Shown one piece after another: positions 12,985-26,780 of a stretch of DNA of 64,000 nucleotides. The DNA is from an uncultured Gammaproteobacteria bacterium (GTDB taxonomy: Bacteria > Patescibacteriota > Microgenomatia > UBA12405): contig CAZJUH010000001.1 of NCBI GenBank assembly GCA_964549165.1, positions 74,566-138,565 on the forward strand, given 5' to 3'. Each line of letters opens with the position of its first letter. Position 1 is the first letter of the stretch. Under the pieces are notes generated by a model that worked only from the letters and a program-made list of their open reading frames with translations, was not told where the DNA came from and ran no database searches. Position numbers and translations under genes: made by a program.

Positions 12985-12985
12985 A

Positions 12986-13897
12986 CTACAACAGTTTATT
13001 GATTTCTAAGTCCCACCCATCTTTATGAATTAGTCGATCTTTACAAAGATTAGCATTGATTATCTCAGCTTTGGTTTTTTGAGACAACTCTTCCCAATTA
13101 TTTTCCAAAATATAGGTGGCATTTCCATAAAATGGGCTTTCAAGTACAAATAGATTTTTATTGGTAAAACCCATAATAATATAACCATGGAAACCTGCAT
13201 TTCCGACGGCAGTAAAATCAGGATGGTGTTTATTTATAAGTTCAAGACGATGTTCTAGATAAGAGCGATTTCCTTTTGGGGTCTCTTCAATAATCTTTTC
13301 AACCTCTTTTTTAAGAGATGACCATGGCATTTGTCCTTGTGGCAATATTGTCCAATTCAATCGTCTTGTTGGTGAAGCTACATCACCCATTTTTGGATCT
13401 AAAATCTGACATTCACCAAATATTTCCAAAAATAAATTTACTACATGTGTTACTTTGTCTTCATCACTAACATCAATTGTTGGACTAACAATTAGTTTTA
13501 TCCCATTTTGAATTGTTGATATTGATAATTCCACACTTGGTGGAACAATAAAAGTTCTCGGATATCTTTTATAAGGAACTTCAACAAATTTACTACGTTC
13601 AACCTGATAAGGACCGTGCCACTCTTGCCATGTCCATTCAGTAACACGCGATACTTCTTCCATTGGTTGATCTTTATGGATTAAATACTTACCCTCTGCA
13701 TTAAAGCTACTGACAGGACCGAATTGTGCTGACGGTAAAACTGTTTCTCCATTCTCAATTTTAGATGTAAAGCCTATTTTGCTGCTTAATTTTGAGTTTT
13801 CTGCGTCAACTGATACTCCAATAATAATATTTTTATATTTTGATAAAACTCCTTTAAAGGGTTTTAATGTTCTGATTCTTCTTTTTTTGATTAACAT
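12986..13897 (-). CDS. hypothetical protein, 303 aa, co-transcribed downstream of the Cas2/VapD-like gene
   Basis: no recognisable motifs; 12-bp spacing to the upstream gene. Confidence 0.4.
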   Translation of the reverse strand: MLIKKRRIRTLKPFKGVLSKYKNIIIGVSVDAENSKLSSKIGFTSKIENGETVLPSAQFGPVSSFNAEGKYLIHKDQPMEEVSRVTEWTWQEWHGPYQVERSKFVEVPYKRYPRTFIVPPSVELSISTIQNGIKLIVSPTIDVSDEDKVTHVVNLFLEIFGECQILDPKMGDVASPTRRLNWTILPQGQMPWSSLKKEVEKIIEETPKGNRSYLEHRLELINKHHPDFTAVGNAGFHGYIIMGFTNKNLFVLESPFYGNATYILENNWEELSQKTKAEIINANLCKDRLIHKDGWDLEINKLL

Positions 13898-13909
13898 AGT
13901 TTTAATAAT

Positions 13910-14176
13910 TTATAATCTGGCGTTTAACCAGTCATGGGCACCAGTGATCATCCATGCGGAATAGCTATTTTTATACAATTGAGCAGTGAAGATATAATCA
14001 TTTGAATCGACCACTGTTCTTATTTGATCACTAATAGTATTGAGATCATAAGCGGTATCCAGAAACCACAAATTTTGTAATGGATGAAGAGTTTGACCTA
14101 AACTCATAATTTTTTTATAGAGAGCATCGTAATTTTGCCCTTCTTTCCTTAGATCGTATGTTATTATATAGACCAT
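13910..14176 (-). CDS. Cas2/VapD-like small protein (ferredoxin-like-fold endoribonuclease family)
   Basis: 88 aa; MVYIITYDL N-terminus (Cas2 MLVLVxYDI/VapD MYAIAFDL pattern with the conserved Asp), central LHPLQNLWFL (cf. Cas2 RVQYSVFEC), C-terminal IRTVVDSNDYIFTAQL (cf. Cas2 IVDSEDSIRVYxL); motif-level resemblance only. Confidence 0.45.
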   Translation of the reverse strand: MVYIITYDLRKEGQNYDALYKKIMSLGQTLHPLQNLWFLDTAYDLNTISDQIRTVVDSNDYIFTAQLYKNSYSAWMITGAHDWLNARL

Positions 14177-14287
14177 ATTGACTTTAATTTATAATGATTT
14201 ATACTTAATTAATAAGGCTTAAGCCTACATCTTTAAGCATATACTTACAATTTTAAGCTTTTTATTAAAAAAATCAAGGGGTAATTT

Positions 14288-14656
14288 ATGATAAATAAAA
14301 TAGATTTAGGTTTTAGGATTGCTGAAAAAAGAAAAAGATTGGAAATGTCCCAATCACAATTAGGGGAAATGTTAGGTATTAGTCATGCGGCTGTATCTGA
14401 TATTGAAAGAGGGATAACTAATCTTAATGTTGAAGGAATATCTAAAATTGCTGATATTCTTAAAACAACATTTGAAGATCTTACTTTTATAAATGATTAC
14501 AGTTCTGCCACACAATCATTTAATTCATCGAATGGGATAAGTGTTTCTGGATATAGATTAGGAAAATACGCTAACAATAATGATATGGAAGAAGCAGATA
14601 AAAAAATTAAAGATAGATTGGCACAATTAAGAAAGGAGAAAAATGATTCACAGTAA
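14288..14656 (+). CDS. XRE-family HTH transcriptional regulator
   Basis: SQSQLGEMLGISHAAVSDIERG HTH_3 motif. Confidence 0.8.
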   Translation: MINKIDLGFRIAEKRKRLEMSQSQLGEMLGISHAAVSDIERGITNLNVEGISKIADILKTTFEDLTFINDYSSATQSFNSSNGISVSGYRLGKYANNNDMEEADKKIKDRLAQLRKEKNDSQ

Positions 14657-15149
14657 AGCTGCAAGAGAAAAAGCAGATAATATTATTGAAATGTATCATA
14701 TTGATGAAGCACCGGTCGATATTTTTGGAATTGCAGAAAAACTAGGTTTTGTGGTAGATAAAATTGAGTTACCCAATGAAATACCTGCAAAAATTGAGGC
14801 TCATGAAGATATTAAGGTCATTTTCATTAATAGTAAACATCCTTTAACAAAACAAAGATTCTCCGTTGGTCATGAACTTGGTCATTATCTGAGTGGGCAT
14901 GAAAATTTCAATGTCGATATTAGATCAATGGCAGATCCGGATAGAAAATATCTTAACTCTCAATATCAACAAGAATACGAAGCTGATGATTTTGCTGCAG
15001 AAATTTTAATGCCAAAATCAATTCTAAAAAAAGATTCCATGGAAAATAAACTTAGTCTAGCTGATTTGGTAAAGAAATACGAGGTAAGTGAACAAGCAAT
15101 GACCATTCAACTTGTTAATCTAAAATTACCCTTTAACAGTGAAAAGTAG
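14643..15149 (+). CDS. ImmA/IrrE-family metallopeptidase
   Basis: HELGHYLSGHE HEXXH motif in an ImmA-sized protein immediately downstream of, and overlapping, an XRE regulator gene. Confidence 0.8.
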   Translation: MIHSKAAREKADNIIEMYHIDEAPVDIFGIAEKLGFVVDKIELPNEIPAKIEAHEDIKVIFINSKHPLTKQRFSVGHELGHYLSGHENFNVDIRSMADPDRKYLNSQYQQEYEADDFAAEILMPKSILKKDSMENKLSLADLVKKYEVSEQAMTIQLVNLKLPFNSEK

Positions 15150-15151
15150 TG

Positions 15152-16234
15152 TCAGGATACAATTTTTACTAAATCATCCTCACTTTCGTAGCCCCTGATT
15201 CTACCTGTTAGAATTCCAAGTCTCTGACTGATTCCGTCACTCATTAATCGCCAGTTTGTATCTTCCAATGTTTTTTTAATCAATTTTTTTAAGTTATTTT
15301 GACTATCGTAGTCACTTTTTGAAGTATCTGATTCTTGTACAGAAAATGGAATTATTACATCTCTAGTAATTTCTGGTTTATCAAAGGAAAGTTCAATATA
15401 TTTTGCTTTTTCTAAGGTTTCTTTTAAAAGTTTTTGTAAATCAAAGACTTTTATTTTTTTTAAGGCTTTTGCTTTCTTATAACGTGGGTCAGCTTCCTTT
15501 GTTTTTCTTTCCTCTTCGTGTTTAGAATATAATTCTGACTGTATTTGATTTGAAACATACTCTTCCCCTTTTTCTTTACTTAAGCAAAATACTCCCCTAA
15601 AAGTTTCTAATAATTGTTTATCTTTTTCTTGTTTCCTTTTATATTCATCACTCTCAGCTTTCATATCCCAAACATCCTTGTTTTTATAACCACATTTGCA
15701 TGTTTCGATGGTAGTAATTACTTCACCTTTTCGTTGGCTATCTTCTTTTAATTCTTGATTACATTTAGGGCATGTGGGTCTTTTTGGTTTAAATTCTTCA
15801 CCATTATCAAAAACACCTCTTCCTTTTTTACAATTAGGACATCTGAAAAAGAATAATATGTTTGATGATTTTTCAGAAAGGTTATATAAGGTTTTGTCTT
15901 CAAACTCCATTGCCCAATTACAATCTGGGCAAAATATTGAACTTGGCTCTTTTGCATTGTCATATATTTCTTGTTCTATTCGATCCTTATCCATCCATTC
16001 TCTTATTGTTTTTTCCTTGTTTCGATATTCCTCACCTTTTTTATAATAGAGAGATATCTCTCCTAATCCTTCTACAAATCCTTTTGGATCTGCTAATTTA
16101 AAATCATTGATTTCTTCTCTATCTTTTTTAATCTTCTTTTTCCATATTTCAATAAAATCAAGGCAATTTTTAATAGTTAATAGATCATAAAGATCTTCAT
16201 AGTATTGTTTCTCTTTTATATAATTCATTAACAA
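15152..16234 (-). CDS. hypothetical protein with multiple CxxC zinc-ribbon motifs
   Basis: CPDCNW...CPNCKK...CPKCNQ...CKCGYK cysteine pairs; charged low-complexity regions; start overlaps the upstream gene by 7 bp. Confidence 0.4.
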   Translation of the reverse strand: MLMNYIKEKQYYEDLYDLLTIKNCLDFIEIWKKKIKKDREEINDFKLADPKGFVEGLGEISLYYKKGEEYRNKEKTIREWMDKDRIEQEIYDNAKEPSSIFCPDCNWAMEFEDKTLYNLSEKSSNILFFFRCPNCKKGRGVFDNGEEFKPKRPTCPKCNQELKEDSQRKGEVITTIETCKCGYKNKDVWDMKAESDEYKRKQEKDKQLLETFRGVFCLSKEKGEEYVSNQIQSELYSKHEEERKTKEADPRYKKAKALKKIKVFDLQKLLKETLEKAKYIELSFDKPEITRDVIIPFSVQESDTSKSDYDSQNNLKKLIKKTLEDTNWRLMSDGISQRLGILTGRIRGYESEDDLVKIVS

Positions 16235-16833
16235 TTAGCCTCTTCTGAATCTATTTCTTTTTGCGATTTAACAAATTTACCAGTGTCCATATCAAAACCT
16301 CTTACAAATTCAATTGAGTAGATACCGATACTATTAGCTGTTGAATCAACTGGTTGGTTTGATATCCTAGACAATTCATCAAATTTCTTATCATCAGTAG
16401 TAACCAAAACTGGTATCCAATTAATATAATTCCATTCTTTCTTTTTAACATCATAATGAGCTGGTAAAACCATAATATTATAAAACTGGTAAACATCATC
16501 CATCATTTTCATATATTCTTTTGATCTAAACAGATCATCAGTGGGAACAATATCTTTAGAATTCCAATATTCCTTTTTGAGTGGGAATCTTTTATTAAAA
16601 TTAATCTTAATAATAACCAACCCACTAACATAAATCGGGCCTTCTTTTAATTTAAGTAAATCTTTTCTTAATTTTTTAACTCTAGTTTGAAGAGATTTTA
16701 CTGTTGGATATATTTGAACTAGTATTTGAATATATCTTAAATTATCAGTTTTACCAACAAATATCACTCCCACATAAGCAGTATCTGGGAAATCCGGCTC
16801 TCGATAACAATACTTTTGGCTTTTCTTATCCAT
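16228..16833 (-). CDS. hypothetical protein, 201 aa
   Basis: ORF with no recognisable motifs; co-directional with, and between, the type IIG RM gene and the zinc-ribbon gene. Confidence 0.35.
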   Translation of the reverse strand: MDKKSQKYCYREPDFPDTAYVGVIFVGKTDNLRYIQILVQIYPTVKSLQTRVKKLRKDLLKLKEGPIYVSGLVIIKINFNKRFPLKKEYWNSKDIVPTDDLFRSKEYMKMMDDVYQFYNIMVLPAHYDVKKKEWNYINWIPVLVTTDDKKFDELSRISNQPVDSTANSIGIYSIEFVRGFDMDTGKFVKSQKEIDSEEANC

Positions 16834-17085
16834 GTTTTAACCAATATTAACATTTAAGGTAAAATTAAATTGAAATGAGTCCTTGGTTTAAAAAATGGTT
16901 ATGTAGAATAATTCTTTGGTATTCGGCCTTTTTTATAATTGCTGATATCTGGGGAGTGGATAATTTGAATCTGTTTATTATGGCCTTTTTTACTTTCTTT
17001 ATAATTGTCGTTCTCCGATTTGTAATAAGAATTTTAACAGAATTATTTAATCTCAGGCTAGAAATTTATCTACACAATTAAATTA

Positions 17086-19875
17086 TTAGGTATTTTCTAT
17101 AATTCCCTTTTCTTCTTCGTTTAATCCATACAATTTATAAACTTCTTTATCTATTTGTTTCTCTATTTCCGTAATTTTATTATTTAATTCAAAATATTTA
17201 TCTGAATTTTTAGAAATATTATTAACTTCTGTTTTAAAACTAATAATTTTATCGACTAGATTAATAATGTCCTTCTGTTGTTCTTTTTCTGCTTTATATA
17301 TTGGCACTTTTAATAAAGGACCTTTGTCTATTTGGAGCAAATCTCCTAATCTTTTTCCCTTATTTATCAACCAATAAAAAGCCAATTTTGAATTTAGCAA
17401 CCCAACTAAATATTTTAAGTTTATTCTATCGGTTTTAATAAAATTTAAAGCCCTTGATCCATAATACTCATTTTCAGTGTAGAAAAAACTTGGTAATGCT
17501 ACTCTTGCACCACCAATAATTTTACTTCCTTTTGTAAAAAACCGTTCATCTCTTTCTCGATGTAGGTAGTAATATGGTTTTGTTGGAGTTTTATATTTTA
17601 TTTTGGAATCTTTTAGCAAAGTTTCGTATTTTTTAAAATGGTTATGTAGTGATGGAAAATCTTCTATTGATTTTCCATTAAAATTTTTAGCGGATAAATA
17701 AATGATATATTTATTTGTTTGCGCTCCATTATATTTTTGTGCTGAAGTATAAAACGATTTAATATATTCACGTTCTTGTAATCCAAAATCTTTTAATTCA
17801 TTGATAATAAAACATTTATCAGGTGCACCAACAATACCTTGTGCTACTTCTTTTTCTTCCAACTGGAAATTTGCCTTTGATAGTATTTTTTCTAAAATCG
17901 AATTATTTTCCTTGTTTGAGAATATTATGTTTTGACCTAATAGTTTATTTTTTTCTATTTGAATTTTTATTTTGCTCTGTTGAATTTTGTTAATTATTTC
18001 TAGTTCAGTAGAACTACTGTTTTCAATTTTTAGATATTCAACATTGTATTTTTCTCGTGGTTTACATTTTTTAAAAACAAAAATCATCGTTTGTATCCCA
18101 GCTTCATTAAATACTTTGTAATCTCCGAAATCTATAAAGCTTAATATTTCTCCCTCATTTAATATTTTGTCTCTAAAAATACTAGCACCTGCATTGGAAA
18201 TCCAATTATTTGGTGCAATAAAACTTAAATATCCACCGTCACGAAGAAGATCAATTGCTTTACAGGCAAACAGTGTCCATAAATCCATTTTTCCTTGATA
18301 ATATGGGCTATCGTGTAAATCATTAAATGCCGCTTTGTTTACAAATTCTTTAATATATGGTGGATTTCCGACAATTACGTCGAATCCTGGATTTTCCCGC
18401 TTAAAAATATATTCAAATTCTTTTTTATATTCAAAAGCCTTATCAGTTGTTTTTTTATCTTCAATTAAAGAATTTCCTACACAAATGTTCTTGCTTATTA
18501 TTGGTAATTTGAAGTTTGGGACGACTGATTGTAGTAAAAGATTAAGTCGAGCAATTTCAATAGCTTGTTCGTCTAGATCAACTCCATAAATGTTTTCTTG
18601 TAATATTCGATATTTTCTAATTGCGGCAATATCTTTATCATTAATATCTTGATTATTTTCTTTTCTTAAATATTGATCTAAATATTCAAAACTATTTATT
18701 AAAAAAGAGCCACTACCACATGCAGGATCAAGAATTTTAATCGATTGTTTCTCGTTCAAATTATTCATTTCTGATAATTTTTTCCCAATTGTATTACTGA
18801 CTATATAATCAACAATGTAACTTGGTGTGTAATATATTCCCTGTTTTTTTCTTTTTCCCTCATCTTTTTTCCCTTTTTGAAGGTATCCCAAATATTGTTC
18901 ATAGACTTTTCCTAATACATCGGCATTTATTGCATCAAATCGATAACTAACCTGTTGTTTTTCATTGCGGTAAAGCTCAGGAATAATTTGTTTGAAAGGA
19001 TTACCCTCAGTATCGAGCTTTTCGCAATAATGTTCATGGAACAAATTACTGTTATAAGTTTGGTCAAATTTTCTAAAGAGTGGAATTAATAGTTCAATAA
19101 AATTATATGGTTTAAATCCATTGCTTTGCCATCTTTGAAATGTTTGCCATAAAAATTTATCTTCTATTCCTTTATCTTCAATCACACGAATAAAAATCAA
19201 TCTATCTAAAATTCTTTGGACAGATTCATTTAACAATCTCAAATCAACACCTGTATTCCATTGTTTTAGATTATTAGTTAATGTGTCTCGCCATCTGACT
19301 AGATCAGCTGCCAGTAATTCATTTACTTTTATTCTTTTTGAGCCAATACCAAAACTTGATAAAGTAGTATCAAGTAAATTTTGGTTAAATGATTCTTTTG
19401 AAAGAAGCCATAGGGTATCAAATTTATCTAAATATTCTGTATATTTAAAATCAAGCCTCTCTTTTGGTCGACCGATATTTTCTTCTGAATTAAAAAGTTT
19501 TAATCCTTCAAAGTCAGTTAATACAACCCATGGAACACCCATATTCCAACCGTATTCAACCGTTTGATTAGCCCATTGTTCTTTGTCTAGATTTTCCGAC
19601 ATTGATTTTGCTTCTAATAAAAACTGTGTTAGATGATTGACTCTAAAAGCATAATCAACTCGACCACAAATAGATGGATCTTCTTCAACAATATCTTCAT
19701 GAATATCCCAACCAAGAGCTTCAAACATTGGAAGAATAAAGTTTTTTCTTGTGTTTGCTTCGTTATAACTTTTCTTTTCTAAGGGTGTTAATCTCTTATA
19801 TTTTTCGATTAATTCAGAAATTTTTATCTTTGCTTCGTCTTTAGACATTTGTTTTTGATTATCTATTGGTGACAT
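17086..19875 (-). CDS. type IIG restriction-modification enzyme (MmeI/Eco57I-like: N-terminal PD-(D/E)xK nuclease + gamma-class N6-adenine methyltransferase + C-terminal specificity region)
   Basis: N-terminal GRVDYAFRV...LLEAKSM (HsdR-N/Mrr-like D..EAK nuclease motif), motif I ILDPACGSGSFL, motif IV VGNPPYIKE; 929 aa. Confidence 0.75.
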   Translation of the reverse strand: MSPIDNQKQMSKDEAKIKISELIEKYKRLTPLEKKSYNEANTRKNFILPMFEALGWDIHEDIVEEDPSICGRVDYAFRVNHLTQFLLEAKSMSENLDKEQWANQTVEYGWNMGVPWVVLTDFEGLKLFNSEENIGRPKERLDFKYTEYLDKFDTLWLLSKESFNQNLLDTTLSSFGIGSKRIKVNELLAADLVRWRDTLTNNLKQWNTGVDLRLLNESVQRILDRLIFIRVIEDKGIEDKFLWQTFQRWQSNGFKPYNFIELLIPLFRKFDQTYNSNLFHEHYCEKLDTEGNPFKQIIPELYRNEKQQVSYRFDAINADVLGKVYEQYLGYLQKGKKDEGKRKKQGIYYTPSYIVDYIVSNTIGKKLSEMNNLNEKQSIKILDPACGSGSFLINSFEYLDQYLRKENNQDINDKDIAAIRKYRILQENIYGVDLDEQAIEIARLNLLLQSVVPNFKLPIISKNICVGNSLIEDKKTTDKAFEYKKEFEYIFKRENPGFDVIVGNPPYIKEFVNKAAFNDLHDSPYYQGKMDLWTLFACKAIDLLRDGGYLSFIAPNNWISNAGASIFRDKILNEGEILSFIDFGDYKVFNEAGIQTMIFVFKKCKPREKYNVEYLKIENSSSTELEIINKIQQSKIKIQIEKNKLLGQNIIFSNKENNSILEKILSKANFQLEEKEVAQGIVGAPDKCFIINELKDFGLQEREYIKSFYTSAQKYNGAQTNKYIIYLSAKNFNGKSIEDFPSLHNHFKKYETLLKDSKIKYKTPTKPYYYLHRERDERFFTKGSKIIGGARVALPSFFYTENEYYGSRALNFIKTDRINLKYLVGLLNSKLAFYWLINKGKRLGDLLQIDKGPLLKVPIYKAEKEQQKDIINLVDKIISFKTEVNNISKNSDKYFELNNKITEIEKQIDKEVYKLYGLNEEEKGIIENT

Positions 19876-20090
19876 TTATGCTTTGATTATATCTCATAGG
19901 AGAATTAAAGCGGTTGGCTAAAATAAAAAAATCAAAAGAATTACTATAATTACTATAGATGCACAAAAATCGAGACCCAAACAAGCGGGACTCTCAACTG
20001 CCGTAACTCTTATATATCGGTCATAAGCATCTTACATAAGGACAAAATTTATTTATTTTTTGCGGTTTAGACCGCTGTCCTAATATAATT

Positions 20091-21446
20091 ATGATCGATA
20101 AAAATACAAACATTAATATTGAGTATATTGATATCAATTTACTCAATCCTTCCGCTTATAATCCTCGAAAACACGATAAGGAATCGGAAGAACAACTAAA
20201 ACAAAGTATTGAACGCTTTGGATTAGTTGATCCCCTAATTGTTAATTCTTCACCTGAAAGAAACAATATTGTGATTGGAGGCCACTTTAGATTAAAAGTG
20301 GCAAAGCAACTTGGTATTGATAAAGTGCCAGTTGTTTATGTCGATATTCCCGATATTGAAAAAGAAAAAGAATTAAATCTCCGATTAAATAGGAACACTG
20401 GTGAATTCGACTTCAAATTATTAGCCGAGTTTGACCAGAAATTCTTAATTGATGTCGGTTTCAGTAGTGAGGAACTCGACGATATTTTTCCAACTGAAGA
20501 TACTCCAGAAAACTTTGACTTGGAAAAAGCATTAGCAAAAGCTGGAGTAAATGAAGTTAAAACCAAAGAAGGTGACATTTGGCTTTTGGGAGATTCTAAA
20601 CTTATGGTTGGTGATTCAACTAAAGAGGAAGACATTTTAAAACTAATGGAAAAGGAAAAAGCCGATATGTGTTTTACTGATCCACCTTACATTCTTAATT
20701 ATCTAAAAGATAAAAAGAAAGATGGAGAACCAACAAAAGGCTTTGGTCAAAAACAAAACCGAAAATATATCGGGACTGATTCTCTCCCTGACAATTTTAC
20801 TGAATTATGGATGGCTAATATTGCCAAAATTCAGAAAGAAAGTTTTTCAATTATCGTTTATGAAAATTGGAAAAATATTAGAATCATTTGGGGAGAGATG
20901 GAAAAGTATTGGCGAGTAAAAAATATGCTCGTTTGGCATTTAAATAATCGTAGCCAAGGCTTTTCAGCAAAGTACAAATTCTTCTCAAAACACGACATTG
21001 CTATGGTGGGATCGTCCCAAAATGCCGATATTGAATTTAATATGGAGGAAGAAAAAGATGGATTACAAGAAGAATATGAAACCGCACTTTTTGCTATTCA
21101 AGGACATCCACAGTGGGAAGGTTATGAAAAAGGCAAAAAGTATCAGCCGACTGATTTTATCGAACATAAAGCGTCGGATGAAAAAAGTTCGGGCCAGGGA
21201 GTAATTTTTGGAACTAAGCCATTAGAAATATTAATCCCCTACATTAAAGTATTAACCAAAAGGGATAATTTAATTATCGAACCGTTTGGTGGTAGTGGTA
21301 GTACTTTGATCGCAGCAGTAAAAATGAAAAGACGCTGTTTTATTATGGAAAAATGTCCAGCTTATGCTGAGGTCATCAAAAAACGCTGGGAAAATCTAAC
21401 TGGACTTAAAGGAGTTTTGTATGAAGAGCAAAAAGGAAGTAATTAA
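20091..21446 (+). CDS. ParB-like nuclease domain fused to a DNA N4/N6 methyltransferase (beta class)
   Basis: N-terminal ParB/Srx-like segment (NPRKHD...GGHFRL), motif IV CFTDPPY preceding motif I EPFGGSGST. Confidence 0.8.
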   Translation: MIDKNTNINIEYIDINLLNPSAYNPRKHDKESEEQLKQSIERFGLVDPLIVNSSPERNNIVIGGHFRLKVAKQLGIDKVPVVYVDIPDIEKEKELNLRLNRNTGEFDFKLLAEFDQKFLIDVGFSSEELDDIFPTEDTPENFDLEKALAKAGVNEVKTKEGDIWLLGDSKLMVGDSTKEEDILKLMEKEKADMCFTDPPYILNYLKDKKKDGEPTKGFGQKQNRKYIGTDSLPDNFTELWMANIAKIQKESFSIIVYENWKNIRIIWGEMEKYWRVKNMLVWHLNNRSQGFSAKYKFFSKHDIAMVGSSQNADIEFNMEEEKDGLQEEYETALFAIQGHPQWEGYEKGKKYQPTDFIEHKASDEKSSGQGVIFGTKPLEILIPYIKVLTKRDNLIIEPFGGSGSTLIAAVKMKRRCFIMEKCPAYAEVIKKRWENLTGLKGVLYEEQKGSN

Positions 21447-21951
21447 GTGCTTAAAAAAGAACTCTATAATTCAAATAGCTTGTCAGCAAGCGGATATTAG
21501 TCGCGCCACCTATTATCGGTGGCGCGATGAAGATAAAAACTTTAAAAAAGAAACTGACCAAGCCAAAAAAGAAGGATTTGAAGTGATTAATGATTTAGCA
21601 GAAACAGGCTTAATAAAAGCAATTAAAGATGGTAACGTCACGGCTATTTTTTATCGACTTAATCATTGTCACCCAGATTATTCTGACAAGAGGTTGTATT
21701 TGTCTAACTCTGACCAAAAACAATTGATTGATGATATTAGTACAAGCAATATAAAAAATATATTGGAAATTCTAATGGAAAAACTTATAAAAGGAGAAAT
21801 TTCAAAATCTGCTGCTAACCAAGTCATATTAATGATTAATAAAATTTATCCACAAGAGGTTAATTCGTTACGTCAGCAGGAAATAAGGAAAACATTAAAT
21901 GAGATGTCAGATCTAATTAATGAGTTAAGTCCAAATTCAAATAGAAAATAG
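21421..21951 (+). CDS. HTH-containing phage-like protein (terminase-small-subunit/transposase-HTH-like N-terminus)
   Basis: IACQQADISRATYYRWRDEDKNF HTH pattern; overlaps the upstream methyltransferase gene. Confidence 0.35.
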   Translation: MKSKKEVIKCLKKNSIIQIACQQADISRATYYRWRDEDKNFKKETDQAKKEGFEVINDLAETGLIKAIKDGNVTAIFYRLNHCHPDYSDKRLYLSNSDQKQLIDDISTSNIKNILEILMEKLIKGEISKSAANQVILMINKIYPQEVNSLRQQEIRKTLNEMSDLINELSPNSNRK

Positions 21952-21967
21952 TAAATTAACTAATCTA

Positions 21968-22189
21968 CTATTCAAAAATATCTGAAAGACTTACTTTCAA
22001 AGCCTTGGCTATTTTTCCTAAAATTTCTAATGATGGAGTGTTCCTCCCTTGTTCGACATATCCAATATAAACTCGGCTAGCTCCGACTTTTTCAGCTAGA
22101 TCTTCTTGAGTCATATTAGCTTCATGTCTAAACTTTCTTATTTTTTGACACATTTTTTTGGTCAACTTGGAGTTTTTTCTCATTCCCAA
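21968..22189 (-). CDS. XRE-family HTH transcriptional regulator (small)
   Basis: MTQEDLAEKVGASRVYIGYVEQGRNTPSLEIL HTH_3 motif. Confidence 0.75.
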   Translation of the reverse strand: MGMRKNSKLTKKMCQKIRKFRHEANMTQEDLAEKVGASRVYIGYVEQGRNTPSLEILGKIAKALKVSLSDIFE

Positions 22190-22308
22190 GGCTATTGTGA
22201 AATTAGTATTTACTCCACTAAGCCAAACTTAGCAAATAGGCACAACATAGCCTTGACTTTCTGCTAATCGACAGTTAGCATTGTGATAATTAACAGTTAA
22301 TAAAAAAA

Positions 22309-22785
22309 ATGGAAAAAAAGAAAAATTGGTTTATGAAACACAAGATACTTACGATTATTTTGGCATTAGTAGTATTTTCAATTTTTAAAGGTGCAGCTGA
22401 AAGCGGAAAGGCTGCTAGAGTTAGTGAAAATCAATCTAAATCAGAAATAAAAACTGTTTTTGATGTTCCATTATTAGTTGGAAAAAATGTGGATGAAGTA
22501 ATCGCAACAATTGGACAGCCAAGAGAAAATAGTTTGCCAACCGAAGAACAATCAAAATTAACCAGTGACTGGAGTATTGAATTTGATAAAGAGGGACAGA
22601 TATTATTAGTTGAATATAATCTCAAGACAAAGATTGTTAAAGATTTATTTATCAGCGGTGATAATAAAGAAGATTTATTAAAAATCGGCAATTTGAAAGA
22701 AAATGCTGATAATTACGCTTTGAATTTTGTTAAACAACAGAATGATCCGACAAAAATAACTGGAGTGACAATTACCAAGAAATAA
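22309..22785 (+). CDS. hypothetical secreted protein
   Basis: N-terminal signal/TM segment; followed by a terminator hairpin. Confidence 0.4.
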   Translation: MEKKKNWFMKHKILTIILALVVFSIFKGAAESGKAARVSENQSKSEIKTVFDVPLLVGKNVDEVIATIGQPRENSLPTEEQSKLTSDWSIEFDKEGQILLVEYNLKTKIVKDLFISGDNKEDLLKIGNLKENADNYALNFVKQQNDPTKITGVTITKK

Positions 22786-22805
22786 ATAAAGGAATTATTT
22801 TAAAA

Positions 22806-22833
22806 CCCTCTGAGAAATCGGAGGGTTTTTGTA
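22806..22833 (+). terminator. rho-independent terminator
   Basis: ccctctgagaaatcggaggg hairpin followed by a T-run. Confidence 0.5.
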
Positions 22834-22846
22834 ATATCATTTAGAT

Positions 22847-23380
22847 ATGAATATCCAATCATGGTTGATAATAGTAGTTCTTGCATTTGTGGTAATTTAC
22901 CAATTTGTTAAATATTCTAATTTAGAAAAAAGAGCTTACGAAATAAAAGATGCTTATTTAAATTTAGCTATCAAAAAGAAATTAATAAATAGAAGAAAGT
23001 TTTTGCGATATGACGAAAATGAATTATATAAAACCCTAATTAATATCGCTGGCGGTAATTTTATTGTTATTCCTCAAGTTCATCTATGTGATATAGCTGA
23101 GGTTAAAACTGGATATAACGATCACGATAACTTATATTACGAACTCAAAAGAATAATTTACGATTACGCTATTTTTGACAAAGAATTTAATCCTTTAGTA
23201 CTTATTGAACTAAATGGAAAATCACACTTCTTTCAAGACAATAGAATAAATAGAGATGCTATTGCAGAAAATAATGCCAAAAATTTAGATCTACCTCTTA
23301 TTCCAATAAAAAAAGAAGATCGTTTTAATGAAAAACTTATAACAGAGAAGCTTTCACCTTATTTAAAACAAATCATCTAA
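22847..23380 (+). CDS. DUF2726-like protein (restriction-endonuclease/PD-(D/E)xK-like fold) with N-terminal TM anchor
   Basis: IVIPQVHLCDI ... IYDYAIFDKEFNPLVLIELNGKSH resembles the D...(D/E)xK core of DUF2726/NERD-like nuclease-fold proteins. Confidence 0.45.
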   Translation: MNIQSWLIIVVLAFVVIYQFVKYSNLEKRAYEIKDAYLNLAIKKKLINRRKFLRYDENELYKTLINIAGGNFIVIPQVHLCDIAEVKTGYNDHDNLYYELKRIIYDYAIFDKEFNPLVLIELNGKSHFFQDNRINRDAIAENNAKNLDLPLIPIKKEDRFNEKLITEKLSPYLKQII

Positions 23381-23414
23381 TAGACTTCCATAAAACCTGC
23401 GGTACAGTAGTGTC

Positions 23415-24755
23415 ATGAATAATAAAGAAGGTGGAAAGATACAGGAAAATGAACTAATCAAATATTGTCTTTATGCTCGAAAATCATCAGAATCTGATGA
23501 ACGACAAGCAATGTCGATCGAGTCTCAAATTAATGAGATGAAAACAATGGCAGAAAGAGAAAATTTGGTTATTAAGGAAATTAGACAGGAAAGTCATTCA
23601 GCTAAATCATCAGGGCTGAGACCAGTTTTTAATAAACTTTTGATTGATATCAGAAATGGAGAATTTAATGCACTACTAACTTGGGCACCTGATCGATTAA
23701 GCAGAAATGCAGGAGACTTAGGAACCTTAGTAGATTTGATGGATCAGGGAAAATTAAAAACTATTCGAACTTTTTCTCAATCATTTTCTAATAATCCAAA
23801 TGAGAAATTCTTATTAATGATTCTCTGTTCTCAGGCAAAACTGGAAAATGATAACCGAGGAATAAATGTCAGAAGAGGCATGAGAGCAAAGTGTGAGGCT
23901 GGATGGAGACCTAATATGGCACCGCTTGGATATTTAAACATAATGAGTTACAACAGAATTAGTTTTGTAGAAATTGATAGTGAAAGAGCACCAATAATTA
24001 AACAGATGTTTCAACGAGTCGGAGAAGAAGGACATAGTGGAAGAACAATTAAGAACTGGCTCGACAGAATCAAATTTACCACCCGAAGTGGAAAGCCACT
24101 AGCCTTGAGTAAGGTTTATACAACATTAAAAAATCCATTTTATTATGGAGAGTTTGAATTCGGTGGCAAGATTTATAAAGGCAAGCATGAACCGTTAATA
24201 GACAGGGCATTGTTCGATAAAGTTCAAAGACAGTTAATAGTTCCAGAAAAAGAATGGAATAAAAAAGTATTCCCTTTTAGAAACCTATGTGTCTGCGGGA
24301 GTTGTGGAGAAAAAGTAACTGCTGAAGAAAAGTATAAAAAAAGTAAATATGGTGAGGTAAGAAAATATGTTTATTATCATTGCGGGCGACATATAAATTA
24401 TGATTGTGACGAACCTTATATTACCGAGGAAGATTTAATTCAACAGCTAGTTATTCATATTGATGAAATAAGGTTACACGAGGTAGAACTCGCTCAATAT
24501 TTAAAACAAGATATTGATAAATTCCATAGGTTAAGAACAGAAGTTTTAAACCAGGAAATTTTAAGCGGAAAATTAGTTGAATTAGAATACGATGCTTTTA
24601 ATCACGTCGACAAAGATATGGCAAAAGAATATTTGATTTATATTCTTAAATTTGGAACAGCAGAGGAAAGAATAAAAGTGATGTCGGCAATAAAAACGAG
24701 ATTTATATTGCACAATAAGGAACTAACAATAAGAATTGATAATAGAAAAATATAA
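23415..24755 (+). CDS. large serine recombinase (resolvase catalytic domain + recombinase domain + Cys zinc ribbon)
   Basis: N-terminal YARKSSESDERQAMSIESQ with catalytic Ser, central recombinase region, CVCGSCGEK...YHCGRH zinc-ribbon cysteines, C-terminal coiled coil; 446 aa. Confidence 0.8.
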   Translation: MNNKEGGKIQENELIKYCLYARKSSESDERQAMSIESQINEMKTMAERENLVIKEIRQESHSAKSSGLRPVFNKLLIDIRNGEFNALLTWAPDRLSRNAGDLGTLVDLMDQGKLKTIRTFSQSFSNNPNEKFLLMILCSQAKLENDNRGINVRRGMRAKCEAGWRPNMAPLGYLNIMSYNRISFVEIDSERAPIIKQMFQRVGEEGHSGRTIKNWLDRIKFTTRSGKPLALSKVYTTLKNPFYYGEFEFGGKIYKGKHEPLIDRALFDKVQRQLIVPEKEWNKKVFPFRNLCVCGSCGEKVTAEEKYKKSKYGEVRKYVYYHCGRHINYDCDEPYITEEDLIQQLVIHIDEIRLHEVELAQYLKQDIDKFHRLRTEVLNQEILSGKLVELEYDAFNHVDKDMAKEYLIYILKFGTAEERIKVMSAIKTRFILHNKELTIRIDNRKI

Positions 24756-24772
24756 TTTTAGTCTATTCAGAG

Positions 24773-26473
24773 TTATACCGTCAATAATGGTATTCTGGTA
24801 ACTAAAATTTTATTAATATTCATAATATTTTTATTAATATTTTCCTTGGTTTCCATATCAATATTTTTCTTGAAATCTTTTTTTTCTTTTTTAGAATAAA
24901 AAATATAGGTAATAGTCTTTTTTAAATCAGATAAATTGGCAAGTTTTTTTAATCTATCACTATCATTTTTAGAAAACATTCCTTCTAATAAAATTCTGTT
25001 TTCGTTTTTATCACAGTACTGAATCCAATTCTCTGATTCTTTATTTCCAAAGAATTTTTTATATTTTTCAATTGCTTTGTCGCCAGCATTATCTCCATCA
25101 AAAACAGCCGTATATCTTTTAGAAGTTCCTATGGCAATGCTAATTAAATATTCATTTTGTTCTGCACCAAATCCAGGTAAAATTACAATATTTTCTGGTA
25201 AAATCATTTTCCAAAAATAAAAATCGGTTATTCCTTCAAAAACTATAACTTTTTTACTTAATGTACTATTAACCGATATTTTTGTTCTTAAAGCATTATA
25301 AAGTGTGGTCATAGCTCCTTGGTTTCTTTTACCTTTTGCCTCAGATAAAGGTACTAAATTGATTTGTCTGTCACTTTTATTTGCAATTTTTATTTTATTA
25401 ATATTAATTATTTCTGGATCAAGTAAAAACTCAGAATGTGTGGAAAAAATAACAGGGTGATCAACGGACAAGTCTTTTATTGCTTTTAATAAAATACTTT
25501 GGGCACTGTTATGTAAGTATGAACCCGGCTCATCAAATAAATATATAAATTTTTCCTGAGATCTAGCCCCATAACATTTTTTAGCACTAAAATTAAAAAA
25601 CCAAATAAAACCTAAGCTTCTTTCACTGAGTTTCATCGAAATTGAATGCTTTTGTTTATTATCATCTTCGAAATTTTCAAAAACATTAATTTTTATTGAC
25701 ATTTTATTTTGTGTATCTTGTAACAATCTGATTTCTATGTTTTCTAATTTTTCTTCACCAACTTCATCGTCTCTTAAATGCATTTTAATCCAATCATCTA
25801 TCATGTCTTTTGTAGTTTCTTTATTTATTTCTGTTAAATAAGTATCTTTAGTATTATCATCATCTTCAGTTAAAAATTCTTTTAAGGAATATCCTGCTTT
25901 TAAAAACATATTTTCTATTATTATTTGGTGTTCATTTAGAACATAGTCAGGATTATTAATATAATCTTGATCAAAATCTACATGATCGTTAAATTTATTC
26001 TCTAAAAAACTGTCAAAATAAAATATTCTTGGTAATCTATTGATTATATCTATACAAAATTTTTCGATTACAGGATCTTCTTCTTCATTAATATGGTAAT
26101 TAATACTCTCACCATCTTGATTTTTTCGAAAATATCTTTTAATAACTAGATTATCTGTTTTTATTAGTGTTAATAACTTTTGCTTCTCTTCTTCTAAATA
26201 ATTAACGATAATATCTTCTATTTCTGATTGTTTGATTGAAATTTCAGAGGTTATACAAAATTCTTTTTCTTGAGGTTTATATCTATTATTAAATTTCCAA
26301 CCTCTTTGAGCAGCCATACTATCGTTTCTGTGATCAAATCTAGCAATAGCTTCAAGAACAGATGTTTTTCCAGACTCATTTACTCCAATTATTGGTACTG
26401 GGTCAGAACCAATAGAAATATTAGAGTTTTTAATTGCTTTATAACTTTCTATATTAAATCTTATATATTCCAT
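24773..26473 (-). CDS. OLD-family ATP-dependent endonuclease (ABC-ATPase + TOPRIM)
   Basis: Walker A GVNESGKTS at the N-terminus, ABC-like middle (LFDEPGSYLH), C-terminal Toprim-like VIVFEGITDFYF ... DGDNAGD. Confidence 0.75.
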   Translation of the reverse strand: MEYIRFNIESYKAIKNSNISIGSDPVPIIGVNESGKTSVLEAIARFDHRNDSMAAQRGWKFNNRYKPQEKEFCITSEISIKQSEIEDIIVNYLEEEKQKLLTLIKTDNLVIKRYFRKNQDGESINYHINEEEDPVIEKFCIDIINRLPRIFYFDSFLENKFNDHVDFDQDYINNPDYVLNEHQIIIENMFLKAGYSLKEFLTEDDDNTKDTYLTEINKETTKDMIDDWIKMHLRDDEVGEEKLENIEIRLLQDTQNKMSIKINVFENFEDDNKQKHSISMKLSERSLGFIWFFNFSAKKCYGARSQEKFIYLFDEPGSYLHNSAQSILLKAIKDLSVDHPVIFSTHSEFLLDPEIININKIKIANKSDRQINLVPLSEAKGKRNQGAMTTLYNALRTKISVNSTLSKKVIVFEGITDFYFWKMILPENIVILPGFGAEQNEYLISIAIGTSKRYTAVFDGDNAGDKAIEKYKKFFGNKESENWIQYCDKNENRILLEGMFSKNDSDRLKKLANLSDLKKTITYIFYSKKEKKDFKKNIDMETKENINKNIMNINKILVTRIPLLTV

Positions 26474-26641
26474 ATTTTGTAATTTTCCTTATTTTACAAC
26501 ATATTTCGAATATATCTTATAGATGTAAAAAGTATCATTACAGGCTTCAAAACTGAAAAAAGTTGTTTCCTAAAAAAATACGAAGGAAAGTTAGGGATTT
26601 GTAGCTATACCACACAAATTTAGTGGAAAGACAGGCAATTT

Positions 26642-26726
26642 GCGGAAGGGGGGGGAGTCGAACCCCCATGCCCCTTACGGGACGCGGGTTTAGCAAACCC
26701 GTGCCTTACCATTCGGCGCACCCTTC
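26642..26726 (-). tRNA. tRNA-Ser (anticodon GCU), type II with long variable arm
   Basis: manual fold: acceptor GGAAGGG/CCCTTCC, anticodon stem CGGGT/ACCCG with loop TTGCTAA, long variable arm, T-arm GGGGG-TTCGACT-CCCCC. Confidence 0.8.
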
Positions 26727-26780
26727 CAAAAGACTTCACAAGTATATCAAATTTAAAGCAAATGCTTTATTATTATTTCA

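What the first reader, a model, noticed from the sequence alone, without database searches (positions are those of the whole stretch)
13900..26730. About 13 kb phage-like defence island ending at tRNA-Ser(GCU)
The island runs from the XRE-ImmA switch, through the type IIG RM operon and a ParB-nuclease/methyltransferase fusion, to a terminase-small-like HTH protein and a second XRE regulator. It continues with a secreted protein, a membrane-anchored DUF2726-like nuclease-fold protein, a large serine recombinase and an OLD-family ATPase-TOPRIM nuclease. The OLD gene abuts the 3' end of tRNA-Ser, the classic integration position. The content resembles a degraded prophage or satellite that retains its defence and anti-defence cargo but lacks visible structural genes.
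Basis: partly seen in the sequence, partly recalled or inferred. Interest (0 to 1): 0.5.

Follow-up and report, generated by a model that had tools for sequence, protein, structure and literature searches.

The report
Serine-recombinase mobile island at tRNA-Ser
The flagged stretch is a real, complete 13.8-kb mobile element in a candidate-phyla-radiation (Shapirobacteria-like) genome, and it belongs to a widespread family that uses a large serine recombinase, not the usual tyrosine integrase, to insert at the very 3' end of tRNA genes while carrying interchangeable defence cargo.

Summary
The island is real, but its limits and mechanism differ from what was proposed.

- **Limits.** The element spans window 12,871-26,646, not 13,900-26,730. 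It has a conserved ~115-nt left end and a conserved ~100-nt right arm abutting tRNA-Ser(GCU). The two ends share only a 5-6-nt core, (T)GCGGA. There is no long tRNA repeat.
- **Recombinase.** The only recombinase is a 446-aa large serine recombinase (LSR). In 54 of 61 informative relatives from metagenomes, the first tRNA after the LSR gene has its 3' end facing it, and 41 of the 54 are tRNA-Ser. None of 60 has a tRNA within 2.5 kb upstream.
- **Target specificity.** LSR clades track the tRNA type.
- **Backbone.** The shared genes are ParB-methyltransferase, TerS-like HTH, XRE and LSR, plus a large terminase in 39 loci. No capsid genes were seen in the seven complete 9.5-14.5-kb elements. Cargo lies in two variable bays.
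- **Polymorphism.** Relatives show an empty site, different cargo at the same junction, and tandem arrays.
- **Other copies.** The window also holds two solo left ends and a decayed sibling at tRNA-Ser(CGA).

Verdict: a new variant of a known kind, satellite-like or SCC-like. Whether it is packaged by a helper phage is untested.

The parts
12871..12985 (+). Left end of the element (attL: core GCGGA 12871-12875, then the P' arm). It contains a T-arm-like GGGTCTGGGA and a distal GAGACAAATGAGACA..TATAAAAAA block.
   Evidence: Homology to the near-identical strains L002, L004 and L005 breaks here. The same ~115-nt sequence forms the far end of LSR elements in L015/L020, L016, L018, L063, L083 and L092 (nhmmer E 1e-23 to 5e-33).
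12986..13897 (-). 303-aa cargo protein of unknown function. The family is found on mobile elements across phyla.
13910..14176 (-). 88-aa cargo protein (phrog_1090, unknown function).
   Evidence: PHROG E 3.3e-20. Weak PADLOC PDC-M24B hit.
14288..15149 (+). XRE repressor (122 aa) plus ImmA/IrrE M78 metalloprotease (168 aa). This is an ImmR/ImmA-type pair and is cargo, not backbone.
   Evidence: HTH_3 E 4.8e-14 and Peptidase_M78 E 3.3e-19. ImmA homologues occur in only 2 other loci.
15152..16833 (-). Two unknown proteins: a 360-aa protein with several CxxC zinc-ribbon motifs and a 201-aa protein.
   Evidence: No family hits. Sequences. The 360-aa protein has homologues in 5 other LSR loci; four of the five also show a partial (8-34% of the query), 21-36%-identical match to this type IIG enzyme.
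17086..19875 (-). Type IIG restriction-modification enzyme (929 aa).
   Evidence: Eco57I E 2.7e-38, N6_Mtase, TaqI_C. PADLOC REase_MTase_IIG E 1.9e-103, residues 13-925.
20091..21446 (+). Backbone gene 1: ParB_N + N6_N4 DNA methyltransferase fusion (451 aa).
   Evidence: Pfam and phrog_498 E 8e-81. Homologues in 54 LSR loci (48 at >=40% query coverage); upstream of the LSR in all 43 tabulated loci that have one.
21421..21951 (+). Backbone gene 2: small-terminase-like HTH protein (176 aa).
   Evidence: HTH_Tnp_1_2 E 6.7e-7 and PHROG terS families E 5e-6. 44% identical to the L016 protein that directly precedes a large terminase. Present in 54-55 loci.
21968..22189 (-). Backbone gene 3: XRE regulator (73 aa), divergent from the operon that ends in the LSR.
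   Evidence: HTH_3 E 4.3e-16. Homologues in 43 loci. In 25 of the 35 tabulated loci that have one it lies on the opposite strand between the terminase genes and the LSR, as here.
22309..23380 (+). 158-aa membrane-anchored or secreted protein and 177-aa DUF2726 protein with an N-terminal TM helix.
   Evidence: Translations. DUF2726 E 2.8e-11. Shared with only 4-6 close relatives.
23415..24755 (+). Large serine recombinase (446 aa), the element's integrase.
   Evidence: Resolvase + Recombinase + Zn_ribbon_recom. YARKSS serine and DRLSR motif align with SPbeta SprA. phrog_95 integrase E 3e-63. Thousands of homologues in Patescibacteria.
24773..26473 (-). OLD-like ATPase-Toprim nuclease (566 aa) in the right cargo bay.
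   Evidence: AAA_15 E 9e-17 and Toprim_2 E 0.0026. PADLOC AriA and Old ~1e-17; GajA model covers residues 207-533. No homologue in any other LSR locus.
26542..26646 (+). Right end of the element (attR: P arm 26542-26641, then core GCGGA 26642-26646, which is also the last bases of the tRNA).
   Evidence: P-arm profile hit E 2e-23. The ~70 nt next to the tRNA are conserved among elements of the same clade. 79% identical to L015 13263-13452.
26642..26727 (-). Host tRNA-Ser(GCU), the integration target. It is left intact.
   Evidence: ARAGORN and Rfam, 53.6 bits. The same gene with the same right-hand neighbours is present without an element in L134, L133 and L010.
4606..4717 (+). Solo copy of the left-end (P') repeat, preceded by a short P-arm-like remnant.
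   Evidence: Self-BLAST and alignment. nhmmer E 1.7e-30.
7720..7939 (+). P arm (type B) - core - P' arm: the kind of junction expected between two tandem elements.
   Evidence: P-arm profile E 4e-29. 91% identical to the P arm of L036. P' nhmmer E 1.5e-33. The same junction type occurs in L031, L083 and L078.
27592..31479 (-). Decayed sibling element in the opposite orientation at the 3' end of tRNA-Ser(CGA). It keeps a methyltransferase, a P-type ATPase, a 112-aa protein and the last ~45 codons of an LSR (31336-31479).
   Evidence: tblastn of the LSR C-terminus. Window 28998-31424 is colinear with the stretch of L040 running from the LSR 3' end into its right cargo bay, at 79% nt identity. 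Weak P-arm-like match at 27584-27619.

Best explanation
Window 12,871-26,646 is one complete integrated copy (13,771 bp) of a family of small mobile elements of Microgenomates-group Patescibacteria. I infer that its own large serine recombinase inserted it at the extreme 3' end of the host tRNA-Ser(GCU) gene.

**Shown:**
- The element has conserved ends.
- The junctions share only the last 5-6 bases of the tRNA, (T)GCGGA, so the tRNA stays intact.
- The arm next to the core on the far side carries a T-arm-like GGGTCTGGAACC at the same distance from the core as the real T arm.
- The LSR gene sits one cargo gene away from the tRNA.
- Relatives show the same layout at tRNA-Ser, Glu, Lys, Gln and Pro genes, with the tRNA type tracking the LSR clade.
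- Related genomes have an empty site, or different cargo at the same junction.

**Inferred:**
- The LSR recombines an attP (P arm - core - P' arm) with the tRNA 3' end and its trailer (attB), with the crossover inside GCGGA.
- The XRE regulator at 21968-22189, divergent from the 158-aa / DUF2726 / LSR operon, controls recombinase expression.
- The ParB-methyltransferase protects the element's DNA on entry into a new cell.
- The TerS-like protein lets the excised circle be packaged by a helper phage. Relatives add a large terminase but no capsid genes.
- The two bays flanking attP (12.9-20.1 kb and 24.8-26.5 kb) hold exchangeable cargo. Here that is a type IIG RM enzyme, an OLD-like nuclease, an XRE/ImmA pair and unknowns.
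- Repeated insertion at the same tRNA, and at the neighbouring tRNA-Ser(CGA), produced tandem arrays and relics. These allow cargo shuffling and chromosome rearrangement.
For: - **Boundaries and polymorphism.** L002 is 99.7% identical to window 7821-12908 and then carries different genes. L005 joins the same flank directly to a tRNA 3' end. L006 has another left-end variant.
- **Empty site.** L134 (~87% identical) has an empty tRNA-Ser(GCU) site reading ...AACTAAGT|GCGGAAGG. L010 has the tRNA about 970 nt from His_Phos_1.
- **No tRNA repeat and no tyrosine recombinase**.
- **LSR looks intact.** Three domains, catalytic Ser and the DRLSR motif are present.
- **Family statistics.** Of 61 informative loci, 54 have a downstream tRNA. 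All 54 are on the strand whose 3' end faces the LSR, and 48 lie within 2.5 kb. None of 60 has a tRNA within 2.5 kb upstream.
- **Target specificity.** The window's clade at >=75% identity targets Ser(GCU) 14 times and Ser(UGA) once. A separate 13-member clade targets only Glu or Lys.
- **Conserved ends.** P arms and P' arms are conserved, and the core matches the target tRNA: GCGGA for Ser, GTGAGCC for Lys.
- **Backbone versus cargo**. The large terminase matches phrog_38 at E 1e-77.
- **Closest element.** L018 (LSR 95% identical) has the same backbone but different cargo in both bays.
- **Cargo survey.** Cargo is a mix of defence and adaptive genes.
- **Tandem arrays** occur in the window, L031, L083, L078 and L125. 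A sibling relic lies at tRNA-Ser(CGA).
- **Composition.** GC drops across the island.
Against: - No excised circle or attP read was observed. An exact left-end pattern found nothing in IMG/VR.
- A scan of 11 reconstructed attP or tandem junctions showed no clear dyad symmetry centred on the core, which LSR sites usually have. Instead, the T-arm-like motifs in the P and P' arms lie in direct orientation.
- The near-identical 'unoccupied' contig L005 shows only 24 nt of tRNA, and that tRNA is a different allele from the window's.
- No replication gene and no recombination directionality factor was identified.
- The window copy lacks the large terminase that many relatives have.
- Some cargo in relatives is metabolic rather than defensive.
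- In two relatives the tRNA-Ser(GCU) flank corresponds to window ~39.2-40.2 kb inverted. The local history therefore includes a rearrangement I cannot fully reconstruct.
Confidence: 0.8

Rival explanations
1. It is a phage satellite in the strict sense. The element stays silent until a helper phage infects. It then excises via the LSR and uses its TerS-like protein (TerS plus TerL in relatives) to have its 9.5-14.5-kb genome packaged into helper capsids, while its cargo interferes with phages. This refines the best explanation rather than contradicting it.
For: - Terminase genes sit in the backbone, and no capsid, portal or tail genes are present in the seven complete 9.5-14.5-kb elements.
- The size matches known satellites.
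- XRE and ImmA-type switches are present.
- Relatives at 50-58% LSR identity are catalogued in IMG/VR.
- Satellites with serine recombinases are known: PLE and marine VEIME module 3 (PMC9618062).
Against: - No primase or replication module was recognised.
- No helper phage is known.
- The window copy has no TerL, and its TerS assignment rests on weak profile hits plus synteny in relatives.
- No packaged or circular form was seen.
- IMG/VR inclusion may simply reflect the terminase hits.
Confidence: 0.35
2. It is a non-packaged, SCCmec-like chromosomal cassette. The LSR only excises and integrates it, transfer relies on other routes, and the terminase genes are inherited remnants of a phage ancestor.
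For: - The LSR's best NCBIfam hit is CcrB (E 1.3e-32).
- Insertion is at the 3' end of a housekeeping gene without disrupting it.
- There are tandem arrays with recombinase-less units.
- Cargo includes RM and resistance-type genes.
- TerL has been lost in the window, L015, L018 and others.
Against: TerS is retained in 54-55 loci and TerL in 39, across 50-95% LSR divergence, with intact reading frames. That argues for selection on packaging genes.
Confidence: 0.3
3. It is a decayed prophage remnant that is no longer mobile: ancestral content fixed next to the tRNA.
For: - No structural genes and no TerL in this copy.
- Relics of sibling elements are nearby.
- No excision product was seen.
Against: - The LSR is full length with its catalytic motifs.
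- Both ends match family profiles at E<=1e-23.
- Strains 99.7-99.9% identical in the flank carry other content or none.
- The closest relative, L018, has the same backbone at 88-97% protein identity but different cargo.
Confidence: 0.1
4. It is a classical tyrosine-integrase tRNA island, as implied by 'classic integration position', with the LSR merely a passenger.
For: tRNA 3' ends are the canonical targets of tyrosine integrases (established knowledge; Williams 2002). The left end begins with a tRNA-3'-like sequence.
Against: - No Phage_integrase domain occurs in any of the 15 ORFs.
- There is no repeat of the tRNA longer than 6 nt.
- The 'tRNA-like' left end is conserved across elements that target different tRNAs, so it is element-encoded.
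- The LSR-tRNA linkage holds in 54 of 54 loci, with spacings as short as 125-183 nt.
Confidence: 0.03

Closest known systems
SCCmec / SCC cassettes of staphylococci (Ccr large serine recombinases)
   Same: LSR-driven, site-specific insertion at the 3' end of a conserved housekeeping gene without inactivating it. Short shared core repeats. Composite tandem arrays that include recombinase-less units. Variable cargo including RM and resistance genes. CcrB is the best NCBIfam hit of this LSR.
   Different: The target here is a tRNA gene, not rlmH. There is one 440-aa LSR instead of CcrA/CcrB or CcrC, and it scores 113 bits against a 900-bit cutoff, so it is not a Ccr orthologue. The backbone contains ParB-methyltransferase and terminase genes. 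The host is a CPR bacterium.
Tycheposons of Prochlorococcus (Hackl et al., bioRxiv 10.1101/2020.12.28.424599)
   Same: Small cargo-carrying or PICI-like elements in streamlined genomes. They are inserted at tRNA genes including tRNA-Ser, with recombinase clades specific for particular tRNAs, tandem arrays and partial tRNA-like ends.
   Different: Tycheposons that target tRNAs use tyrosine recombinases (910 of 937 elements; 474 of 501 carry a tRNA-associated tyrosine recombinase). They duplicate tRNA segments and many carry primase or helicase genes. Here the tRNA-targeting enzyme is an LSR and no replication module was found.
Phage satellites (PICI, cf-PICI, PLE, marine VEIMEs)
   Same: Size of 9.5-14.5 kb. 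An integrase plus a repressor switch plus small-terminase-like packaging genes. Defence cargo. PLE and VEIME module 3 use serine recombinases (PMC9618062).
   Different: No primase or replication gene, capsid-remodelling gene or AlpA was found. Many members carry both TerS and TerL but no capsid genes, a combination not among the four families searched by SatelliteFinder (PMC10085698, from its abstract). Helper dependence is untested.
Temperate-phage serine integrases (phiC31, Bxb1, TP901-1, SPbeta SprA)
   Same: Same domain architecture and catalytic motifs. SprA is the best solved-structure match (E 4e-11). Junctions share only a few bases.
   Different: From my own knowledge, those enzymes insert within protein-coding genes or intergenic sites with dyad-symmetric att sites. 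Here the target is the acceptor/T-arm end of tRNA genes, and clear dyad symmetry was not detected.
ICEBs1 ImmR/ImmA regulatory module
   Same: An adjacent XRE repressor and M78 (ImmA/IrrE) protease at 14288-15149.
   Different: Here the pair is cargo, found in only 2 other loci. It is not next to the recombinase. The conserved regulator of the family is a different 73-aa XRE.

Membership tests
Large serine recombinase (LSR) integrative element | Recombinase with Resolvase catalytic domain + Recombinase domain + zinc-ribbon domain, and a catalytic serine | tested here: met
   PF00239 E 2.7e-20, PF07508 E 7e-15, PF13408 E 6e-9. Ser24 in YARKSS and the DRLSR motif align with SprA.
Large serine recombinase (LSR) integrative element | Junctions share only a short core (2-12 bp); no long duplication | tested here: met
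   attL and attR share (T)GCGGA in the window. Relatives share GCGGA(G) or GTGAGCC.
Large serine recombinase (LSR) integrative element | attP and attB with imperfect dyad symmetry around the crossover | tested here: inconclusive
   The symmetry scan over 11 reconstructed sites shows no peak at the core. Only short AGAC/GTCT and GACCC/GGGTC inverted motifs are seen by eye.
Large serine recombinase (LSR) integrative element | Recombinase actually catalyses integration and excision at these sites | not testable with these tools
   Needs an in vivo or in vitro recombination assay, or reads spanning attP/attB.
Classical tRNA-targeting genomic island (tyrosine integrase type) | Tyrosine recombinase gene at one end | tested here: not met
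   No Phage_integrase hit in any ORF.
Classical tRNA-targeting genomic island (tyrosine integrase type) | Direct repeat of a 3' segment of the tRNA (typically >=15 nt) at the distal end | tested here: not met
   No second copy of the 22-nt tRNA 3' end at <=3 mismatches. The distal end is an element-encoded mimic.
Phage satellite (PICI-like) | Integrase, small size, no virion structural genes | tested here: met
   13.8 kb here and 9.5-14.5 kb in six relatives. No capsid, portal or tail hits.
Phage satellite (PICI-like) | Packaging-redirection gene (TerS or equivalent) | tested here: inconclusive
   Weak terS profile hits (E 5e-6). Homologous (44% identity) to the protein upstream of TerL in relatives. 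Function untested.
Phage satellite (PICI-like) | Own replication module (primase/helicase/Rep) | tested here: not met
   None was recognised in the window copy or among the backbone genes. Unknown ORFs remain.
Phage satellite (PICI-like) | Helper-phage-dependent induction and encapsidation | not testable with these tools
   No helper is known. Only integrated or tandem copies were found in IMG/VR.
Intact prophage | Capsid, portal, tail and lysis genes | tested here: not met
   Absent from all 15 ORFs.
SCC (Ccr) cassette | Ccr-orthologous recombinase and insertion in rlmH | tested here: not met
   CcrB model 113 bits against a 900-bit cutoff. The target is a tRNA.
Defence island | Two or more recognised anti-phage systems clustered on a mobile element | tested here: met
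   Type IIG RM (PADLOC E 1.9e-103) and an OLD-like nuclease (AriA/Old ~1e-17). Cargo of relatives includes SLFN/AlbA_2, KAP NTPase, LmuA and PDC families.
OLD-family nuclease | N-terminal ABC-type ATPase plus C-terminal Toprim domain | tested here: inconclusive
   AAA_15 is above its cutoff. Toprim_2 scores 18.5 bits, below the 22.1 cutoff. The PADLOC GajA model covers residues 207-533. No solved-structure match by sequence.

The most novel reading that the evidence does not exclude
A whole lineage of ~440-aa large serine recombinases, spread through Microgenomates-group CPR bacteria, has evolved to read the acceptor/T-arm end of tRNA genes as attB. Its attP arm mimics the T arm, and sub-clades are retargeted to Ser, Glu, Lys, Gln or Pro tRNAs. 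The elements it drives carry terminase genes but no capsid genes and swap defence cargo through tandem arrays. If helper-dependent, they would be the first phage satellites described for the candidate phyla radiation.
Probability: 0.35. Interest if true: 0.8.

Novelty: new variant of a known kind. Interest (0 to 1): 0.62.

Why it matters
- **An unusual target for this enzyme class.** tRNA 3' ends are textbook targets of tyrosine integrases. A large, internally consistent serine-recombinase family doing the same job, without duplicating the tRNA, would add a natural set of compact (~440 aa) LSRs. Their specificity co-varies with a highly conserved, easily predicted target, which is of interest for recombinase engineering.
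- **Gene flow in CPR bacteria.** These organisms have ~1-Mb genomes, few CRISPR systems and almost no described mobile elements. A family that occupies several tRNA-Ser genes per genome would explain how defence and adaptive genes move in these organisms. It delivers restriction, OLD, Schlafen-like, Lamassu-like and metal-resistance cargo, and it leaves tandem arrays and rearrangement breakpoints.
- **Limit of the literature check.** My literature searches found no description of LSR elements at tRNA genes in Patescibacteria. The library is incomplete, so prior description cannot be excluded.

Tried and rejected
- **tRNA repeat.** I searched for a repeat of the tRNA 3' end and found none. The generic repeat finder gave only AT-rich chance pairs.
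- **Rfam.** Nothing was found over the window beyond the six tRNAs, so the ~115-nt repeat is not a known RNA.
- **GAGACA motif.** The GAGACAnnnGAGACA motif occurs only in the three left-end copies, not at the XRE operator regions. A link to the XRE regulator was therefore dropped.
- **Dyad symmetry.** The scan of reconstructed attP sites gave no peak.
- **Promoter and terminator scan.** Fewer hits than in shuffled sequence; uninformative.
- **IMG/VR patterns.** The exact left-end pattern gave 0 hits. The GAGACA pattern gave 19 loci, of which only one contig belongs to the family. That contig is a tandem array, not a circle.
- **303-aa protein.** I tried to name it from a confident model, but found no informative fold match.
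- **Source contig.** An exact look-up of the 303-aa protein, to identify the source contig, failed.
- **Unit C.** I considered treating 7,940-12,870 as plain host flank. This remains unresolved because it is bracketed by att-type repeats, and L002 shares exactly that block.
- **Element-borne tRNA.** I considered that the tRNA might be carried by the element and rejected it. The tRNA and its right-hand neighbours are conserved in genomes without the element.

Full report
**1. What is in the sequence**

ARAGORN and Rfam place tRNA-Ser(GCU) at 26642-26727 on the minus strand, so its 3' end faces left toward the flagged region.

Fifteen ORFs fill 12,986-26,473.
- XRE and ImmA/M78
- a 929-aa type IIG RM enzyme
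- a ParB_N + N6_N4 methyltransferase fusion
- a TerS-like HTH protein
- a second XRE
- a membrane-anchored 158-aa protein and a TM-anchored DUF2726 protein
- a three-domain large serine recombinase (LSR)
- an OLD-like AAA_15/Toprim protein

GC falls to 0.25-0.33 across 14-27 kb, against 0.33-0.40 outside. No ORF has a tyrosine-recombinase domain.

**2. True boundaries**

Exact-protein look-ups of the flanking genes gave contigs from closely related strains:
- L002 (GCA_964582365.1) is 99.7% identical to window 7821-12908 and then carries entirely different genes.
- L004 stops at 12874.
- L006 continues into a variant of the same repeat.
- L005 runs from the same flank straight into a tRNA 3' end...ACACGAAGTGCGG|AAGGGATGGGAGTCGAACCCACATG.

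It includes a 303-aa and an 88-aa gene.

The left junction reads GAAGT-GCGGA-GCATGTGGGTCTGGGAT. The right junction reads GGCAATTT-GCGGA-AGGGGGGGGAGTCGAACC. Only (T)GCGGA, the last bases of the tRNA, is common to both.

**3. The organism and the empty site**

Relatives of the left-flank protein are Candidatus Shapirobacteria, Woesebacteria and Patescibacteria MAGs.

- In L010 the block tRNA-Ser(CGA) / tRNA-Arg(GCG) / 194-aa gene / tRNA-Ser(GCU) lies about 970 nt from the His_Phos_1 gene, with no 13-kb insert.
- The right-flank 181-aa gene is a conserved Shapirobacteria gene.
- In L134 and L133 (~87% nt identity, same tRNA allele) the tRNA block is conserved and the tRNA-Ser(GCU) 3' end abuts ordinary host DNA with no LSR element. 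In L134 this junction reads ...AACTAAGT|GCGGAAGG.

**4. The recombinase and its relatives**

The LSR has thousands of homologues. The best 120 are 62-92% identical, about 440 aa long, and those with a named source are all Patescibacteria. Its catalytic serine and DRLSR motif align with SPbeta SprA. Its best curated family hit is CcrB, far below the cutoff.

I collected genomic contexts from exact look-ups, 80 metagenome loci and 12 IMG/VR loci. They show a striking regularity:
- Of 61 informative non-redundant loci, 54 have a tRNA after the LSR gene.
- All 54 are on the strand that puts the tRNA 3' end toward the LSR.
- 48 lie within 2.5 kb (median 827 nt, minimum 125 nt).
- None of 60 loci has a tRNA within 2.5 kb upstream.
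- Forty-one targets are tRNA-Ser of any anticodon. A clade about 60% identical to the window's enzyme sits 181-183 nt from tRNA-Glu or tRNA-Lys in eight of its eleven members with a mapped tRNA.
- Clustering shows that target type follows LSR clade.

**5. The ends**

The ~70-100 nt between the last cargo gene and the tRNA (the P arm) is conserved within clades.

The ~115-nt sequence at 12,871-12,985 (the P' arm) is found, in the same orientation, 7-10 kb upstream of the LSR in L015/L020, L016, L018, L063, L083 and L092. This defines complete elements of 9.5-14.5 kb.

The P' arm starts with the terminal bases of whatever tRNA is targeted: GCGGA for Ser and GTGAGCC for Lys. It then carries GGGTCTGGAACC, with its GAACC at the same offset from the core as in the genuine T arm. 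Because this sequence is conserved across elements at different tRNAs, it is element-encoded and not a displaced tRNA fragment.

I could not demonstrate LSR-type dyad symmetry. This is the main weakness of the mechanistic assignment.

**6. Backbone and cargo**

tblastn of the window's proteins against all loci separates backbone from cargo.
- Backbone: ParB-methyltransferase (54 loci), TerS-like HTH (54), XRE-73 (43) and the LSR.
- Cargo, found in 0-10 loci and there mostly as partial or low-identity matches: every other gene of the island.

In 39 loci a 476-513-aa protein follows the TerS-like gene. It is a large terminase (phrog_38, E about 1e-77). None of the seven complete elements has capsid, portal or tail genes.

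The window copy, L015 and L018 lack TerL. L018, whose LSR is 95% identical, shares the backbone at 88-97% protein identity. It has a 1209-aa protein plus a Schlafen/AlbA_2 protein in the left bay, and YibE/F and others in the right bay.

I surveyed 97 non-redundant cargo ORFs. They include SLFN_AlbA_2, KAP NTPase, LmuA and PDC candidates, but also ArsP/ArsR, P-type ATPase, SDR, FolE2 and thioredoxin. Most have no annotation. The cargo is therefore mixed, and in this copy it is mainly defensive.

**7. Arrays, relics and rearrangement**

- The window has two more P' copies, at 4606-4717 and 7817-7939.
- The second copy is preceded by a P arm 91% identical to that of L036. This gives a P-core-P' junction, as expected between tandem elements. 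The same junction occurs in L031, L083 and L078, and in an IMG/VR contig with two units 9,117 nt apart.
- On the other side of the tRNA cluster, 31336-31479 encodes only the last ~45 codons of a sibling LSR. Window 28998-31424 is colinear with the stretch of L040 that runs from the LSR 3' end into its right cargo bay. This is a decayed element at tRNA-Ser(CGA).
- L133 also has a P arm right after tRNA-Ser(CGA).
- Relative to L133 and L134, the window carries an inversion of roughly 26.6-39.15 kb whose left end is the att core.
- Whether block 7,940-12,870 is host DNA or an LSR-less unit is unresolved (notebook).

**8. Interpretation**

The best-supported reading is an LSR-mobilised integrative element that targets the extreme 3' end of tRNA-Ser.
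- Shown: its structure, its distribution and its polymorphism.
- Inferred: catalysis by the LSR, control by the XRE regulator, and helper-phage packaging.

The closest known systems are:
- SCC cassettes, which share the LSR, the 3'-end target and the arrays.
- Tycheposons, which share tRNA targets, arrays and cargo but use tyrosine recombinases.
- Phage satellites, which share size, terminase genes and defence cargo; PLE and VEIME module 3 use serine recombinases.

The element fails the defining tests for a classical tRNA island, an intact prophage and a Ccr cassette. It meets some satellite criteria (size, no structural genes), is inconclusive for TerS, and lacks a recognisable replication module.

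Literature searches found no prior description of this arrangement in Patescibacteria. I rate it a new variant of a known kind, of moderate-to-high interest.

Noticed in passing
window 27592-31479: A decayed second element of the same family sits in the opposite orientation at the 3' end of tRNA-Ser(CGA). Only the last ~45 codons of its LSR survive (31336-31479, minus strand). Its right-bay cargo is colinear with L040 at 79% nt identity: a 112-aa protein, a P-type ATPase of 653 aa and a 299-aa methyltransferase.
   Followed up: yes
window 4606-4717 and 7720-7939: Two extra copies of the element's ~115-nt left end. The second copy is fused to a right-arm sequence 91% identical to that of another family member (L036), giving an attP-like tandem junction. 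The 5-kb block between 7.9 and 12.9 kb (two radical-SAM genes, amidohydrolase, His_Phos_1) is shared at 99.7% with L002, which differs on both sides. It may be a recombinase-less array unit or captured host DNA.
   Followed up: partly
window 26642 to about 39150: In two ~87%-identical relatives (L133, L134) the DNA abutting the tRNA-Ser(GCU) 3' end corresponds to window 39152-40174 in inverted orientation. This implies a ~12.5-kb inversion, or a more complex rearrangement, with one breakpoint exactly at the att core. A faint left-end-like motif (TCTGGGCTGGAT) lies at 39141-39156.
   Followed up: partly
window 5817-7000 and 27811-27869: An IS3-type insertion sequence (rve transposase 5835-6692, orfA 6712-6960, minus strand). 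A solo 59-nt copy of its end, 96.6% identical, lies at 27811-27869 beside the decayed element. These repeats coincide with the ends of the Logan contig SRR13007705_4205.
   Followed up: partly
[not shown]
   Followed up: partly
window 15152-16234 (minus strand): A 360-aa protein with four CxxC zinc-ribbon motifs recurs at 30-63% identity in five other LSR loci (L031, L041, L090, L083, L108), in different gene neighbourhoods where compared (L083). It may be an accessory function of the family rather than part of the RM system.
   Followed up: no
L018 and L040 (one contig, Ga0265297_10001459): A single 55-kb contig carries two elements of the family about 32 kb apart, at tRNA-Ser(GCU) and tRNA-Ser(GGA). 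Their LSRs are 95% and 75% identical to the window's. Multiple occupancy of tRNA-Ser genes in one genome therefore seems common.
   Followed up: no
L002 / L007 record title: The NCBI MAG contig CAZOQV010000015.1, 99.7% identical to this Shapirobacteria-like window over 5 kb, is titled 'uncultured Gammaproteobacteria bacterium'. This is probably a mis-binned or mislabelled contig.
   Followed up: no
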